Of a DNA stretch of 64,000 nt, positions 59,013 to 63,032 are shown piece after piece. This stretch comes from Candidatus Latescibacterota bacterium (GTDB lineage: Bacteria > Latescibacterota > UBA2968 > UBA8231). The translations under genes were made by a program, and so were the position numbers. Under the pieces are notes generated by a model. It was not told the origin of the DNA. It worked only from the letters and a program-made list of their open reading frames with translations, and made no database searches. Positions within the stretch are counted from its first letter, which is position 1. Each line of letters opens with the position of its first letter. Location of the stretch: positions 128,001-192,000 of the forward strand of contig CBDCSU010000006.1 in assembly GCA_965221775.1 (NCBI GenBank). The letters run 5' to 3'.

Positions 59013-60170
59013 CTATGCCGCCGCTTCCATCAGGATCCGCGCCACCTCCGGCCGGGTGAACTCCATGGGCGGCACCTGTCCGGCGGCCAGCATGTCGCGC
59101 ACCTGCGTACCGCTGAGGATCACCCGGTCCTCCGGCCCGTGGGGGCAGGTCTTCATGGAGGCCATGCCCTCGCAGCGCTTGCAGTAGAAGGAGTGGTCGA
59201 AGTACAGGGGCGTGATGCCGAGATCCTCCGGCGGCACGCTGCGCAGCAGGTCCTGCGCCTCGTAGGTGCCGTAGTACGACCCGACGCCGGCGTGGTCGCG
59301 CCCGACGATGAAGTGGGTGCAGCCGTAGTTCTTGCGGAGGAGGGCGTGGAAGATCGCCTCCTTCGGGCCGGCGTAGCGCATCGCCGCGGGCAGCACCGAG
59401 AGGTGCACGTGGCCGGCGGGGTAGTAGCCCTCCAGCAGCGCCTCGTAGCAGCGCATGCGCACGTCGGCGGGGATGTCGTCGGGCTTGGTCTCGCCCACGA
59501 GGGGATGCAGCAGCAGCCCGTCGACGATCTCCAGGGCCGCCTTCTGGATGTACTCGTGGGCCCGGTGCACGGGGTTGCGCGTCTGGAACCCGACGATGGT
59601 GCGCCAGTCCCGCTCGGCGAAGGCGGCGCGGGTCTCGGCCGGGTCCTGCCGGTAGGGCCGCAGCACCTCCTCCAGCTCCTCGCGCTCGACGACGGTGACC
59701 GCGCCCCCCACGAGCAGGTCGTGCTGCCGGTAGACGGAGGCGACGCCGGGGTGGTCCTCGTCATCCGTCCCGAAGACGTTCCGCGCCTCGGCCTGCTTGT
59801 CGTACGGGTAGACCTCGTCGACCTCGATGATTCCCACGAGCCGTCCCGCGGCGTCGTGCAGGGCGGCCTCGCGGCCGACGCCGAGGGCGGCGGCGGCCTC
59901 CGGCGGCGCGGACAGGGTGATGGGCAGGCTCCAGAGGGTGCCGTCGGCGAGGCGCATCTCGCCCACGGTGCGCTCGTAGTCGGCGCGGTCCATGAAGCCG
60001 GTGAGGGGGCTCATGGCGCCGACGGCGATGAGGTCGAGGTCGGCGGACTCGCGGAGAGAGAGGGTGAGGCGGGGCAGGCCGCCGGCGCGGGCGCGGATCT
60101 CGCGCGCCTGCGCGGGTGAGGCCAGCCGCTGGACCAACTCGCCGCCGTGGGGTGCGATGGGGATCGTCAT
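59013..60170 (-). CDS. sat: Sulfate adenylyltransferase
   Basis: [36 protein letters not shown]. Confidence 0.96.
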
Positions 60171-60742
60171 CGGGCCGCGGCCTCCGCCGGCTGTTTCGCC
60201 GTGCCCGAGGGGATGAAGCCCCGCATCTCCAGGGCGGCCACCACCTTGGCGAGACTCTCCTCGACGCTCTCCGCCTCCGTGTCGAGGAAGACGTCGGGGT
60301 TCAGCGGCTCCTCGTACGGGTCGGAGACGCCGGTGAAGTTGGGGATCTCGCCCTTCAGGGCCTTCTCGTAGAGTCCCTTCACGTCGCGCCGCACCAGCTC
60401 GTCGAGGGAGGCGTGGACGTGGACCTCGATGAAGCGGCCGATCTCGCCGCGGACCTCGTCGCGCACCTCGCGGTACGGCGAGATGGCCGAGACGATGCTG
60501 ACGACGCCGTTGCGGGTCAGCAGATGGCTGACGAACCCGATGCGGCGGATGTTGGTGTCGCGGTCCTCCTTGCTGAATCCGAGTCCCTTGCTGAGGTTCG
60601 TGCGCACCACGTCGCCGTCGAGCAGCTCGGACTTGACGCCGCGCTCCCGCAGCAACGCCAGCAGCCGCTCCGCGATCGTGCTCTTGCCCGCGCCGGACAG
60701 CCCGGTGAACCAGACGGTCACACCTTTGTGATCGATGGTCAC
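60167..60742 (-). CDS. cysC: Adenylyl-sulfate kinase
   Basis: [32 protein letters not shown]. Confidence 0.96.
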
Positions 60743-60745
60743 GCT

Positions 60746-61537
60746 TCATCTCCTTCCGAGAGTAGTGTGTCGTGATGGGGCCGCGTCTGCCTCGCCCCGG
60801 TTGCCGGTCGTTGAGACGACTTCGGCCGTCACGGGGTCGATATGGATGCCGCACTCCACCTTGTCCCCGCCCGACCAACGGCCCGCCCGCGGATCCTCAC
60901 CGGGCCTGACGGCGCGCGTGCAGTGGGTGCAGCCGATGCTGGGGTATCCGCGGTCGTGGAGGTCGTTGTAGGGCACGTCGTTCTCGCGGACGTAGTTCCA
61001 GACGTCATCCTCGGTCCACGCCGCCAGGGGGTTGATCTTGACGAGGTCGAATCTCGTGTCCCAGGCGGCGATGGCAACGTCGCGGCGGGTCTCGCCCTGG
61101 TCGCGGCGCAGGCCGGTGATCCATGCTCTCCGGCCTTCCAGGGCGCGCTCATTCGGGGCGACCTTGCGGATCTGGCAGCAGAGGTCGGGGTCGTCCTTCC
61201 ACAGCTCCGGCCCGTGCAGGACGGCCTGCTGCCCGGCGGACAGATCCGGCCTGAAGGCCAGGGGAAGGAACCCGTAGCGGCGCGCGGCTTCGTCCTTGAG
61301 GGCGTGGGTCTCCGTGAACAGGAAGCCGGTATCCACGTAGAAGACCGGCACGGACCGGTCGCTCTTCATGGCCATGTCGAGCAGGACCATGCCGGAGACG
61401 CCGCCGAAGCTGCAGGCGAGGGCGATCTCCGGCTGGAAGTTGTCGAGGGCCCAGGCCATGATCTGGCGGGGGTGAGCGGTCTCGAGCCCCGCGCTGACCT
61501 GGGCCAGCCTCTCCCCGGTCCATTCTTCTGTTTCCAT
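60746..61537 (-). CDS. cysH: (Phospho)adenylyl-sulfate reductase
   Basis: SFG, DTG, CC..RKV, GYPSIGCTHCT, RAGRW, ECGIH (Fe-S type). Confidence 0.93.
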   Translation of the reverse strand: METEEWTGERLAQVSAGLETAHPRQIMAWALDNFQPEIALACSFGGVSGMVLLDMAMKSDRSVPVFYVDTGFLFTETHALKDEAARRYGFLPLAFRPDLSAGQQAVLHGPELWKDDPDLCCQIRKVAPNERALEGRRAWITGLRRDQGETRRDVAIAAWDTRFDLVKINPLAAWTEDDVWNYVRENDVPYNDLHDRGYPSIGCTHCTRAVRPGEDPRAGRWSGGDKVECGIHIDPVTAEVVSTTGNRGEADAAPSRHTTLGRR

Positions 61538-61569
61538 GACTCCTCCGTCTCTTCTTCGTCACTCTGAAC

Positions 61570-61606
61570 AAAAAAACCGCCCCGATGACTGGCTCATCGG
61601 GGCGGT
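61570..61606 (-). terminator. Intrinsic terminator (attenuator) in the cysH leader
   Basis: 13-bp stem ACCGCCCCGATGA/TCATCGGGGCGGT, 5-nt loop, U-tract on the minus strand, about 30 nt before the cysH ATG. Confidence 0.88.
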
Positions 61607-61665
61607 GGATGCGCCTTCCTGCGTGCAGGGATTGGCGCTGCCGTGTTGGCGAGGCCGGCTTGCGT

Positions 61666-61779
61666 CTAAGGCACGGCCTCCCGCCCCGGGGTGGGCTCGC
61701 AACAACAACAGCAGCAGGTCCCCGCCATGCGGGTCCCCCGCGCCGACGCCGATCGGCCATGTGCGCGGGTCTTGATCAT
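61666..61779 (-). CDS. Poly-cysteine leader peptide (MIKTRAHGRSASARGTRMAGTCCCCCCEPTPGREAVP)
   Basis: Six consecutive Cys codons (TGC TGC TGT TGT TGT TGC) at 61699-61716; ATG at 61779 or 61728; TAG at 61666. Confidence 0.82.
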   Translation of the reverse strand: MIKTRAHGRSASARGTRMAGTCCCCCCEPTPGREAVP

Positions 61780-62051
61780 TTCCTCGTCACTTCCTCGAAT
61801 CCTGGTGGAGCGCCACCGCCGACGCGGCGACCAAAGCCCGACGAATCTACGGGGTCTCTACCTCCCCGGCAACAGCCCCGGAACGGGCCGAAGCGGGGAC
61901 GTCCGGCTCGCCCGGCCGGGGGTGAGTCGCGCGGATGGCCGGCAGGTCCCGGCGGCGGCCGGGGAGCAGCCTCTCCTGATTGACACGCCGTCGGCGGGCC
62001 GTTTCTTCAGCCCTCCGCCGGAGACAAGCCTCGAGCAGAAAGGACGACCCC

Positions 62052-63032
62052 ATGCACATCGCCCTGGCCCTGGAACCCGACGCCACCGCCGTTTCCACCT
62101 TCGGCGCCCAGTGCGGCGTCGAGCACGCCGTGGGCACCTTCGACCTGACGCCGCTGGCGGACAAGCCGGTCGACGACGACGCCCAGCCCTTCAGCCGCGT
62201 CTCCCTGGCGCGCCGCAGGTCGCAGTACGAGAGCAACGGCTATCACCTGGCCGTGATCGAGAGCCGCCCCCCCATGGAGAGCATCAAGCTCGGGCGGGAC
62301 GGGCGCGACGAGGAGATCGCCGTCTGCTGCGAGCTCATCCGCAACATGGGGGCCGCCGGCATCCCGGTGTGGTGCCCGGCGTGGATGCCCGTCCACATGG
62401 TGATCCGCACCTCGCGCCAGCTGCCGTCGCGGGGAGGCTCCAGGGTGACGGGATTCGACCTGGAGGAGTTCAACCGCACCCACGAGGCCGGCGTCCACGG
62501 CGAGATCACCGAGGCCGATCAGTGGGAGAACCTGAGATACTTCCTCGAGCGCGTCGTGCCCGTGGCCGAGGAGGCCGGCGTCAAGCTGGCCATGCATCCC
62601 GACGACCCGCCCCTGTCGCCGATCCAGGGCGTGGCCCGCATCATCAGCAGCGTCGACAACTACCAGCGCATGGTCGACCTCGTGCCCAGCCCGGCCAACG
62701 GCATCGGCCTCTGCCAGGGCAACTTCGGCCTCATGACCGACGACCTGCCCGGCGTCATCCGCCACTTCGGCGGGCAGGAGAAGATCCACTTCGTCCACTT
62801 CCGCGACATCCGCGGCACGCCGGAGAAGTTCCAGGAGGCCTTCCACGACGACGGCCAGCACGACATGGCCGCCTGTGTCCGAGCCTACAAGGACGTCGGC
62901 TACGGCGGCGTGGCACGCCCCGACCACTTCCCGCAGCTGACCTACGAGGACTTCGAGGACACGCACTCCATGGAGCGCCTCTACGCCATCGGCTACATGC
63001 GGGGCCTCATCGAGGCGGTCTACAGCGAGTGA
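62052..63032 (+). CDS. uxuA: Mannonate dehydratase family protein
   Basis: IKLGRDGRDEEI, WENLRYFLERVVPVAEEAGVKLAMHPDDPP, FVHFRD, RPDH. Confidence 0.88.
   Translation: MHIALALEPDATAVSTFGAQCGVEHAVGTFDLTPLADKPVDDDAQPFSRVSLARRRSQYESNGYHLAVIESRPPMESIKLGRDGRDEEIAVCCELIRNMGAAGIPVWCPAWMPVHMVIRTSRQLPSRGGSRVTGFDLEEFNRTHEAGVHGEITEADQWENLRYFLERVVPVAEEAGVKLAMHPDDPPLSPIQGVARIISSVDNYQRMVDLVPSPANGIGLCQGNFGLMTDDLPGVIRHFGGQEKIHFVHFRDIRGTPEKFQEAFHDDGQHDMAACVRAYKDVGYGGVARPDHFPQLTYEDFEDTHSMERLYAIGYMRGLIEAVYSE

What the first reader, a model, noticed from the sequence alone, without database searches (positions are those of the whole stretch)
61570..61779. Classical cysteine attenuator: Cys6 leader peptide + antiterminator + terminator upstream of cysH-cysC-sat
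Seen: an unannotated minus-strand sORF has six consecutive Cys codons and is followed by a 13-bp intrinsic terminator about 30 nt before cysH. The leader mRNA segment CGGGGCGG (61681-61688), 3' of the Cys run, is complementary to the terminator 5' arm CCGCCCCG. A nested hairpin GAGGCCG/CGGCCTC (61651-61680) covers the leader stop codon. Established: this is the trp/his-type attenuation layout, and poly-Cys leader ORFs are known in mycobacteria. Inference: ribosome stalling under Cys-tRNA limitation frees the antiterminator and induces sulfate assimilation. I do not know of a terminator-based Cys attenuator described for this operon in such a lineage.
Basis: partly seen in the sequence, partly recalled or inferred. 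Interest (0 to 1): 0.88.

Follow-up and report, generated by a model that had tools for sequence, protein, structure and literature searches.

The report
Cysteine-sensing attenuator before sulfate assimilation genes
A tiny upstream gene with six cysteine codons in a row, followed by a transcription stop signal that can be disarmed, most likely lets this marine bacterium switch on its sulfate-assimilation genes only when cysteine runs short; the mechanism is textbook, but this use of it seems undescribed.

Summary
On the minus strand lie a predicted promoter, a 37-codon sORF with six consecutive Cys codons, a hairpin holding its stop codon, a 13-bp terminator with seven T, then cysH-cysC-sat. 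It is the only run of six or more Cys codons in the 5.36 Mb genome.

The layout recurs before the close cysH orthologues of four congeners and before more distant orthologues on metagenome contigs. In one contig group most of the sequence differs, yet the Cys run, the stop codon inside a hairpin, the terminator and the complementarity between the post-Cys segment and the terminator's 5' arm remain.

RNA-library contigs cover just the leader, starting 7 nt after the predicted -10 box (a weak hint).

My reading is a classical ribosome-mediated, Cys-tRNA-sensing transcription attenuator (about 0.75). It matches no Rfam family. My literature searches found only translational poly-Cys attenuators in mycobacteria and a predicted cysS attenuator in Rhodobacterales. 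It is a new member of a known kind. No experiment exists.

The parts
61867..61872 (-). Predicted -35 box TTGCCG
   Evidence: TTGCCG-N17-TAGATT scores 8 of 12. The same arrangement stands in G004 and G007, and better sigma-70-like promoters stand directly before the sORF in G002, G006, L039, L044, L045 and L062 (9 of 10 leaders score 8 or more of 12; L059 scores 5). The stricter scan listed no promoter.
61844..61849 (-). Predicted -10 box TAGATT
   Evidence: Relatives carry TAGTTT, TAGAAT, TAGTAT, TATAGT or TATTTT at the matching place.
61837..61837 (-). Possible transcription start
   Evidence: It lies 7 nt after the -10 box. The RNA-library contig of run X16 covers 61611-61837 with no differences; run X17 covers 61611-61822. 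Contigs cannot prove an RNA end, so this is a weak hint.
61666..61779 (-). Leader sORF, 37 codons plus stop. An in-frame alternative start at 61728 has GGGGG 6 nt upstream and would give a 20-codon peptide
   Evidence: An ATG-started ORF in the same frame as the Cys run, ending inside the P2 hairpin, is present in 10 of 10 homologous leaders.
61699..61716 (-). Six consecutive Cys codons (proposed stall site; segment 1)
   Evidence: unique in the genome. Relatives carry C6, C7, CCRC, CSCCC, CSC, CxC6 and C3xC6.
61681..61688 (-). Segment A, CGGGGCGG: 5' strand of the antiterminator
   Evidence: Complementary to 61605-61598. It pairs with that segment in the fold of the nascent RNA. Duplex -25.7 kcal/mol against -13.8 +/- 2.7 in 1000 shuffles.
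61651..61680 (-). P2 hairpin GAGGCCG/CGGCCUC with the leader stop codon (61668-61666) in its loop
   Evidence: all pairs kept in 5 of 5 close relatives. Group II has a different hairpin that also encloses the stop codon.
61637..61648 (-). Segment 2, CAACACGGCAGC: pairs with the Cys-codon run (1:2-like helix)
   Evidence: 12 pairs with compensatory changes in G002.: -28.8 kcal/mol, 0 of 1000 shuffles reach it; significant in G000, G004, G007 and G002 only.
61611..61638 (-). P3 hairpin GCGCC...CCUG/CAGG...GGCGC
   Evidence: Missing in G002.
61570..61606 (-). Intrinsic terminator: 5' arm 61606-61594 (contains segment B, CCGCCCCG, 61605-61598), loop 61593-61589, 3' arm 61588-61576, seven T at 61576-61570 (the first T pairs with A61606)
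   Evidence: The hairpin alone folds at -27.1 kcal/mol. Present in all 10 leaders, with compensatory changes in the stem.
61540..61546 (-). cysH Shine-Dalgarno sequence GGAGGAG
60746..61537 (-). cysH (APS/PAPS reductase)
   Evidence: PF01507, 1.6e-49.
60167..60742 (-). cysC (APS kinase)
   Evidence: PF01583, 1.2e-59.
59013..60170 (-). sat (ATP sulfurylase); its start overlaps the cysC stop as ATGA

Best explanation
This is a ribosome-mediated transcription attenuator that senses charged tRNA-Cys and controls cysH-cysC-sat.

Transcription starts near 61837. The leader sORF is translated while RNA polymerase moves on.

When Cys-tRNA is plentiful, the ribosome runs through the six Cys codons to the stop codon, which lies inside hairpin P2. 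There it melts P2 and covers part of segment A (CGGGGCGG). The terminator's 5' arm therefore stays free, the 13-bp terminator forms, and transcription ends at the T tract, 32 nt before cysH.

When Cys-tRNA is scarce, the ribosome stalls on the Cys codons. This keeps the helix between the Cys codons and 61648-61637 open and leaves A free. A then pairs with B (CCGCCCCG, in the terminator's 5' arm), closing a junction with P2 and P3. The terminator cannot form in time, and the polymerase reads into the operon.

Shown here: the elements, their conservation and their complementarities. Inferred: translation of the sORF, the stalling, the kinetic competition, and the role of the 1:2-like helix in forcing termination on untranslated RNA.
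For: Anatomy.

Uniqueness: this is the only run of six or more TGY codons in the genome, and it lies about 160 nt before the sulfate-assimilation operon.

Conservation is tied to the gene. 5 of 30 cysH loci from 41 related genomes carry a Cys-rich sORF plus a T run, and they are exactly the 5 with close cysH orthologues (74-100% identity). Among 25 metagenome loci with CysH at 47-71% identity, L044, L045, L059 and L062 carry MSS..C(I/M)CCCCCC..* sORFs plus a terminator, and L039 carries a ..TCSCYMTVPGREAAR* sORF plus a terminator.

Changes preserve or add Cys codons. G007 has an in-frame extra TGC. L062 has TGC where L044 has GGC and CGC.

The stop codon lies inside the hairpin that follows A in the folds I inspected.

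The antiterminator logic is kept where the sequence differs: CGGGGCGG/CCGCCCCG in the window, GGGGCGGG/CCCGCCCC in G006, and CCGCCGGG+GGUGG with CCACC..CCCGGCGG in L044, L045 and L059.

Nascent-RNA folds for the window: the mean probability that the terminator's 5' arm is paired upstream is 0.67-0.76 with a ribosome on the Cys codons and 0.34 with it on the stop codon. For L039 the figures are 0.78 and 0.14.

A:B duplex against 1000 dinucleotide shuffles: a fraction of 0.001 or less reach it in G000, G004 and G007, and 0.008 in L039.

1:2-like helix: -28.8 kcal/mol, 0 of 1000 shuffles reach it, with compensatory pairs in G002.

Sigma-70-like promoters stand directly before the sORF in 9 of 10 leaders.

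RNA-library contigs of two runs of one study cover 61611-61837 and 61611-61822 with no differences.

There is no room for a promoter between the terminator and cysH.
Against: No experiment exists: neither translation of the sORF nor any response to cysteine is shown.

A:B complementarity does not beat dinucleotide shuffles in 6 of 10 leaders (fraction reaching it 0.06-0.25 in G002, G006, L044, L045, L059 and L062). G+C-rich segments pair easily by chance.

The terminator state is 11-29 kcal/mol more stable than the antiterminator state in group I in every ribosome state. Antitermination would therefore have to be kinetic. By my recollection this is also true of the E. coli trp leader.

The equilibrium fold of the untranslated nascent RNA also shows A:B (0.74). 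Termination on untranslated RNA thus depends on the 1:2-like helix forming first. That helix could in principle coexist with A:B as a pseudoknot, and it is significant only in 4 of 10 leaders.

In group II, a ribosome on the stop codon does not cover A in my model (0.48-0.67).

The first ATG has a poorly spaced Shine-Dalgarno sequence.

L039 has only two Cys codons in its cluster and G002 only three.

The RNA contigs come from one study, cannot give the strand, and could include DNA.
Confidence: 0.75

Rival explanations
1. Translational attenuation of the mycobacterial type. The poly-Cys run would pair with the cysH ribosome-binding site, stalling would free that site, and the terminator would be incidental.
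For: Poly-Cys sORFs work this way in Mycobacterium smegmatis (bioRxiv 10.1101/834739, passages read). RNAduplex finds a -16.5 kcal/mol pairing between the Cys run and the region before cysH.
Against: That pairing is reached by 12.8% of 1000 shuffles and is mostly G-U-rich. A strong terminator with seven T, conserved in all 10 leaders, lies between the sORF and cysH. The Cys run has a far better partner at 61648-61637.
Confidence: 0.04
2. The sORF encodes a working Cys-rich small peptide, for example for metal or redox chemistry. It would be made from its own short mRNA that ends at the terminator, and read-through into cysH would be constitutive leakage.
For: RNA-library contigs cover only the leader. 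The C-terminal part C-x-P-x-x-x-G-x-E is similar across groups.
Against: The N-terminal halves are unrelated between G000, G002, G006 and group II. The conserved C-terminal codons coincide with RNA segments A and P2. The number of Cys varies from 2 to 9. The element is found only before cysH orthologues. cysH has no promoter space of its own.
Confidence: 0.06
3. A ligand- or protein-binding leader RNA (riboswitch-like) controls the terminator, and the ORF and Cys codons are by-products of the RNA sequence.
For: P2 and the GGGCGGGAGGCC block are invariant in five congeners. The leader folds better than shuffles.
Against: No Rfam family matches. In group II most of the RNA sequence differs while the reading frame, the start codon, the Cys run and the stop position are kept. 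Changes add Cys codons in frame.
Confidence: 0.08
4. Chance: an off-frame CTG/TGC repeat in G+C-rich intergenic DNA that happens to lie next to an ordinary terminator of some upstream transcript.
For: Runs of four or five TGY codons are common in this 70% G+C genome.
Against: It is the only run of six or more in the genome. Half of its codons are the rare TGT. It recurs before orthologous genes in diverged sequences. The upstream neighbour is divergently transcribed, so the terminator ends no other gene.
Confidence: 0.02

Closest known systems
Classical leader-peptide attenuators of amino-acid operons (E. coli trp, Salmonella his, and leu, thr, ilv, pheA); described from my own knowledge and from the introduction of 10.1101/834739
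   Same: A promoter-proximal sORF with clustered codons for the pathway's end product, an intrinsic terminator before the first structural gene, an alternative antiterminator that uses the terminator's 5' arm, a helix that includes the regulatory codons, and a stop codon placed so that a terminating ribosome blocks the antiterminator.
   Different: The amino acid is cysteine and the operon is sulfate assimilation. The lineage is Gemmatimonadaceae-like sponge and marine bacteria. The antiterminator closes a junction around two hairpins rather than being a simple 2:3 hairpin. The 1:2-like helix and the antiterminator share no nucleotides; they exclude each other only by nesting. There is no sequence match to the Rfam leader families.
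Polycysteine leaderless sORF attenuators of mycobacteria (Canestrari et al., bioRxiv 10.1101/834739; passages read). The earlier prediction of Cys leader peptides without terminators in Actinobacteria is Seliverstov et al. 2005 (PMC1262725; passages read)
   Same: A poly-Cys sORF upstream of cysteine or sulfur metabolism genes. Ribosome stalling on Cys codons relieves repression.
   Different: [quoted passage not shown] Here there is a conserved intrinsic terminator, no significant pairing with the Shine-Dalgarno region, and a predicted 5' UTR of about 58 nt.
uORFC-8-2 motif upstream of cysS in Rhodobacterales (Brewer et al. 2021, PMC8632094; passage read)
   Same: A predicted ribosome-mediated attenuator with Cys codons inside a stem and a U-tract terminator.
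   Different: It has two tandem Cys codons, regulates the tRNA synthetase gene rather than a biosynthetic operon, and is found in alphaproteobacteria. I found no sequence relation. Its supplements, which I could not open, may list further uORF candidates.

Membership tests
Classical ribosome-mediated transcription attenuator (trp/his type) | Short leader ORF with clustered codons for the regulating amino acid | tested here: met
   Six consecutive Cys codons in a 37-codon ORF. It is the only such run in the genome. Cys clusters are present in all 10 homologous leaders.
Classical ribosome-mediated transcription attenuator (trp/his type) | Intrinsic terminator between the leader ORF and the first structural gene | tested here: met
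   A 13-bp stem followed by seven T, ending 32 nt before the cysH ATG. A terminator hairpin plus a T run is present in all 10 leaders.
Classical ribosome-mediated transcription attenuator (trp/his type) | Alternative antiterminator pairing that uses the terminator's 5' arm | tested here: met
   A:B forms in the folds of the nascent RNA. It beats shuffles in 4 of 10 leaders. The complementarity is kept with different sequences in G006 and in L044, L045 and L059. All of this is in silico.
Classical ribosome-mediated transcription attenuator (trp/his type) | Geometry: a ribosome stalled on the regulatory codons leaves the antiterminator free, and a ribosome at the stop codon blocks it | tested here: inconclusive
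   Met for the window (0.67-0.76 against 0.34) and for L039 (0.78 against 0.14). Weak or absent in G002, L044, L045 and L062. The footprint limits are assumed.
Classical ribosome-mediated transcription attenuator (trp/his type) | Helix that includes the regulatory codons (1:2 type) | tested here: met
   In the window it is -28.8 kcal/mol and 0 of 1000 shuffles reach it. Compensatory pairs occur in G002. It is not significant in G006, L039 or group II.
Classical ribosome-mediated transcription attenuator (trp/his type) | The leader ORF is first on the operon transcript and is translated | tested here: inconclusive
   A predicted promoter stands directly upstream in 9 of 10 leaders. The RNA-library contig starts 7 nt after the -10 box. 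Translation was not testable.
Classical ribosome-mediated transcription attenuator (trp/his type) | Read-through rises when charged tRNA for that amino acid is scarce | not testable with these tools
   This needs reporter or Term-seq experiments.
Mycobacterial polycysteine leaderless sORF translational attenuators | Leaderless mRNA (transcription starts at the sORF start codon) | tested here: not met
   The predicted -10 box ends 64 nt before the ATG in the window. Only G002 comes close, at 9 nt.
Mycobacterial polycysteine leaderless sORF translational attenuators | The Cys tract pairs with the Shine-Dalgarno region of the next gene, and no terminator is involved | tested here: not met
   The pairing is -16.5 kcal/mol and 12.8% of 1000 shuffles reach it. 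A conserved terminator is present.
uORFC-8-2 motif (cysS, Rhodobacterales) | Located upstream of cysS, with two tandem Cys codons at about codons 14-15 | tested here: not met
   The downstream gene is cysH, and there are six Cys codons at codons 22-27.
Rfam leader families (His_leader, Trp_leader, Leu_leader, Thr_leader and others) | Match to a curated covariance model | tested here: not met
   No relevant match at E up to 10 in the window's 61000-62400. None at gathering score in 20 related loci.

The most novel reading that the evidence does not exclude
This would be a new, uncatalogued family of cysteine-sensing leader-peptide attenuators that end transcription at an intrinsic terminator. 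It would be the first such attenuator for a cysteine or sulfate-assimilation operon and the first leader-peptide attenuator noted in Gemmatimonadota. It appears to travel with a cysH(-cysC-sat) cassette that is patchily distributed: 5 of 10 genomes of one genus, none of 158 other genomes of the phylum, and contigs of much lower G+C. That pattern suggests horizontal spread of a gene cassette together with its own amino-acid sensor.
Probability: 0.55. Interest if true: 0.6.

Novelty: new member of a known kind. Interest (0 to 1): 0.55.

Why it matters
Cysteine was long the amino acid without a described classical attenuator. In the literature I could search, the known poly-Cys sORFs of mycobacteria act on translation, and the only terminator-type prediction concerns cysS. 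A terminator-type Cys sensor before cysH-cysC-sat would extend the textbook mechanism to sulfur assimilation and to a little-studied phylum of sponge and marine bacteria. It would give a compact part of about 270 nt that reports Cys-tRNA charging. It would also show a regulatory leader moving together with its operon. The interest is moderate, because the mechanism itself is textbook.

Tried and rejected

**Rfam.** Nothing relevant in the window or in 20 related loci.

**Exact motif scan of genome contigs.** There were 8 hits. Four are the congeners' leaders. The other four lie in or after unrelated genes (L031, L034, L035, L036) and were dismissed.

**Covariance model R1 over 151 genomes of the phylum.**
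- There were 4 strong matches: G000, G004, G006 and G007. G002 does not appear among the genomes listed for this search.
- There were 11 weak matches (E 5e-4 to 0.01).
- I inspected 6 of the 11 (L070-L075). All are ordinary gene-end terminators.
- The 'CRCC' in L072 is the C-terminus of an open frame of more than 500 codons.
- The other 5 weak matches were not inspected.

**Cys-rich criterion on metagenome loci.** It flagged 8 of 25 loci.
- L049 was dropped: the frame runs to 8 nt before cysH and there is no terminator.
- L058 was dropped: the locus has no upstream DNA, so the hits lie elsewhere.
- L041 and L042 carry a ..NCSCCTF.. sORF followed by a strong hairpin with a weak T tract, and cysH lies about 190 nt further on. 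I kept them only as a possible third variant.
- L039 was missed by the criterion and was found by eye.

**Other tests.**
- The region upstream of sulfite reductase in the same genome has no Cys-rich sORF.
- Pairing of the Cys run with the cysH Shine-Dalgarno region is not better than shuffles.
- Pairing of the Cys run with upstream or downstream segments in group II is not better than shuffles.
- Formal covariation counts for A:B across the two groups were not made, because MAFFT puts the groups one to three columns out of register there.

**RNA coverage.** No contig of the four RNA runs covers 61546-61592, and none bridges the terminator into cysH. Both leader contigs stop at 61611, about 5 nt before the terminator stem, but they come from one study.

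**Taxonomy of the group II contigs.** It was not determined. Their CysH type was not found among 168 sampled genomes of the phylum.

**Supplements.** Supplements of papers were closed. Those of PMC8632094 may list further uORF motifs.
Full report
**Observation.**
- The sORF 61779..61666 encodes MIKTRAHGRSASARGTRMAGTCCCCCCEPTPGREAVP*. Its six Cys codons lie at 61716-61699.
- CGGGGCGG (segment A) is at 61688-61681.
- The hairpin GAGGCCG/CGGCCTC (P2, 61680-61651) holds the stop codon TAG (61668-61666) in its loop.
- A 13-bp terminator (61606-61576, 9 G-C pairs) is followed by seven T (3 terminator-like sites in 61000-62400 against 0.4 expected from 50 shuffles). Its 5' arm contains CCGCCCCG (segment B, 61605-61598).
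- The cysH ATG at 61537 lies 32 nt after the T tract and has the Shine-Dalgarno sequence GGAGGAG.
- The operon is cysH (PF01507, 1.6e-49), cysC (PF01583, 1.2e-59; starts 3 nt after the cysH stop) and sat (PUA_2 + ATP-sulfurylase; its ATG overlaps the cysC stop).

**Is it more than chance?**
- In the whole assembly (5.36 Mb, 69.8% G+C) runs of four or five TGY codons are common in all frames. This is the only run of six or more.
- Three of its six codons are TGT, which makes up 9.3% of Cys codons (525 of 5627) in 795 long ORFs. There is one tRNA-Cys(GCA) gene.
- The 225-nt leader folds at -114 kcal/mol (z = -3.39; 0 of 200 shuffles fold as well).

**Relatives.**
- A search of 41 related genomes with the CysH protein found close orthologues (74-92% identity) in only four genomes of the same genus. 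The remaining matches are 32-47% identical.
- Of the 30 loci fetched, the five with the close cysH type are exactly the five with a Cys-rich sORF plus a T run upstream.
- Their Cys clusters are C6 (G000, G004), C7 (G007, an in-frame extra TGC), CCRC (G002) and CSCCC (G006).
- The block GGGCGGGAGGCCG-N13-AGCCGGCCTC is identical in all five. The stop codon lies in the P2 loop in all five.
- An exact scan for that block over one genome per species found 8 places. Four are these congeners. Their record titles name Gemmatimonadaceae twice and 'Candidatus Latescibacterota' twice. The other four are unrelated.
- In 168 sampled genomes of the phylum, this CysH type (E <= 1e-70) occurs only in the 5 genomes of this genus.
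- A covariance model of the leader found no convincing further copy in 151 genomes. It gave 4 strong matches and 11 weak ones. I inspected 6 of the weak ones, and all are ordinary terminators.

**Metagenome relatives.** A scan with the CysH alignment returned 25 loci at 47-71% identity.
- L039 (71% identity, locus G+C 0.62) has MNTFANTHSPSVAAVARRAAVTCSCYMTVPGREAAR*. It shares the GGGGCGGGAGGCC block, has a P2 with the stop codon in its loop, and has a 9-bp terminator with seven T.
- L044, L045, L059 and L062 (best-segment identity 51-60%, G+C 0.52-0.54; 'group II') have MSSISLQ..GRC(I/M)CCCCCC(T/M)P..AGVEVL..*. In L062 the cluster is PCCCICCCCCC. A terminator follows.
- MAFFT aligns the two groups in register from the Cys run to the terminator, so they look homologous, yet most of the RNA sequence differs.
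- The following are kept: the ATG-started frame, the Cys run followed by x-Pro, a hairpin enclosing the stop codon, the terminator (with a compensatory C-G to U-A pair), and a segment just after the Cys run that is complementary to the terminator's 5' arm. In L044, L045 and L059, CCGCCGGG and GGUGG pair with CCCGGCGG and CCACC. This forms one long hairpin together with P2.
- In L059 a C-to-U change in B keeps pairing with G in both alternative helices.
- L062 is the weakest case.
- L041 and L042 (..NCSCCTF..) are a doubtful third form.
- The other loci have no such leader. In some, cysH follows another gene directly.

**Promoter and RNA.**
- A sigma-70-like promoter stands directly before the sORF in 9 of 10 leaders. 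Examples are TTGACA-N17-TATAGT in L039 and TTGACA-N18-TAGAAT in L044. The window has the weaker TTGCCG-N17-TAGATT (61872-61844). The stricter scan found none.
- The stretch occurs in sponge and marine metagenome runs.
- In two metatranscriptome runs of one study, contigs with no differences cover 61611-61837 and 61611-61822. The first begins exactly 7 nt after the predicted -10 box.
- Contigs show neither strand nor true ends, and DNA may be present in such libraries. I count this as a weak hint that the leader is transcribed from that promoter.

**Structure and mechanism.**
- Without the terminator's 3' arm, the window's leader folds with A paired to B, closing a junction around P2 and P3 (-54.9 kcal/mol, 3 of 200 shuffles fold as well).
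- I modelled ribosome footprints as 15 nt upstream to 14 nt downstream of the A-site codon. The mean probability that the terminator's 5' arm is paired upstream is then 0.76, 0.67 and 0.67 with the ribosome on the first, middle and last Cys codon, and 0.34 with it on the stop codon. For L039 the figures are 0.78 and 0.14. G006 gives 0.62 and 0.56 with the ribosome on the middle and last Cys codon, 0.09 on the first, and 0.25 on the stop codon. G002 gives 0.67-0.71 and 0.44. Group II shows little or no difference.
- The A:B duplex beats 1000 dinucleotide shuffles in G000, G004, G007 and L039, but not in the other six leaders.
- The terminator state is always the more stable one, by 11-29 kcal/mol in group I and 3-10 kcal/mol in group II. 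It gains a further 2-6 kcal/mol (about 8 in G004) when the ribosome sits on the stop codon in 9 of 10 leaders. Control would therefore be kinetic, as in the classical cases.
It appears in the full-length minimum-energy fold and in the consensus fold of the five congeners, with compensatory changes in G002. In the window it is -28.8 kcal/mol and 0 of 1000 shuffles reach it.
- This helix encloses A. It is the natural counterpart of the trp 1:2 helix: if it forms first on untranslated RNA, it would keep A from B and force termination, and a ribosome on the Cys codons would prevent it.
- It is significant only in G000, G004, G007 and G002. It could in principle coexist with A:B as a pseudoknot. 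The equilibrium fold of the nascent RNA prefers A:B. This step of the model is therefore the least secure.

**Rivals.**
- Mycobacterial-type sequestration of the Shine-Dalgarno sequence is not supported (12.8% of shuffles reach the pairing) and would not explain the conserved terminator.
- A working Cys-rich peptide is unlikely. The N-terminal halves are unrelated between lineages, the Cys number varies from 2 to 9, and the conserved codons coincide with RNA segments.
- A riboswitch-like RNA is unlikely. The frame, the start, the Cys run and the stop position survive where the RNA sequence does not, and no Rfam model matches.

**Literature.**
- Canestrari et al. (bioRxiv 10.1101/834739; passages read) state that uORF-mediated attenuation for cysteine had not been described. 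They show that the mycobacterial poly-Cys sORFs act on translation, not on termination.
- Seliverstov et al. 2005 (PMC1262725; passages read) predicted Cys leader peptides 'without obvious terminators' in Actinobacteria.
- Brewer et al. 2021 (PMC8632094; passage read) predicted a terminator-type attenuator with two Cys codons before cysS in Rhodobacterales.
- Eckartt et al. 2026 (PMC13236596; passages read) mention regulatory cysteine codons only under translation attenuation.
- Searches for leader peptide, cysteine, terminator, sulfate and attenuator terms, and for Gemmatimonadetes with leader peptide and attenuation, gave no description of this element. Subscription journals and supplements were not searchable.

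**Verdict.** The element most likely works as a classical Cys-tRNA-sensing transcription attenuator (confidence about 0.75). The detailed roles of A:B and the 1:2-like helix are less certain. It is a new member of a known kind: a new amino acid and operon combination, a new lineage, and a leader family that no catalogue holds. Interest is moderate.

Noticed in passing
window 60746-61537 (cysH) and 60167-60742 (cysC): CysH carries a Cys-Cys pair, a GC(T/V)HC motif and a C-terminal KVECG(I/L)H. From memory, these mark the iron-sulfur APS-reductase type, yet the operon also encodes an APS kinase. Which sulfonucleotide the enzyme uses is open.
   Followed up: no
L050, L051, L052, L061 (about 100-280 nt before cysH): cysH orthologues at 61-62% identity have a different leader. 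It has a TTGACA-N17-TATGAT promoter, about 130 nt of RNA and a strong terminator-like hairpin with T runs. It has no Cys-rich sORF, and L050 and L051, the two of the four that were scanned, match no Rfam family. This may be another, unknown regulatory leader for the same gene.
   Followed up: partly
G000 and relatives: This cysH type is patchy. It occurs in 5 of 10 genomes of the genus and in none of 158 other sampled genomes of the phylum at E <= 1e-70, and its relatives with the same leader sit on contigs of much lower G+C. This suggests horizontal transfer of the cassette together with its leader.
   Followed up: partly
L032, L033, L037, L038: Genomes that the genome tool places in one genus carry different phylum labels in their public titles: Gemmatimonadaceae twice and 'Candidatus Latescibacterota' twice.
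   Followed up: no
window 61699-61716: Half of the leader's Cys codons are TGT, against 9.3% genome-wide. The TGT codons supply the U's that pair with CAACA in the 1:2-like helix, and they may also be read more slowly.
   Followed up: partly
L004 (G002), sORF start: In G002 the predicted -10 box ends only 9 nt before the sORF ATG. That leader may be leaderless or nearly so, as in the mycobacterial poly-Cys sORFs.
   Followed up: no
window 61300-62000: Fifteen runs hold at least half of the stretch's sampled words. Nine of them are sponge metagenomes, one is a marine metagenome and five carry coded organism names. The organism is probably sponge-associated.
   Followed up: no
G000:C4:605459-607795: The sulfite reductase gene (NIR_SIR) stands alone on another contig. 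It has its own TTGACA-N17-TATCTT promoter-like site and no Cys leader. Only the activation and reduction steps appear to be under the attenuator.
   Followed up: partly
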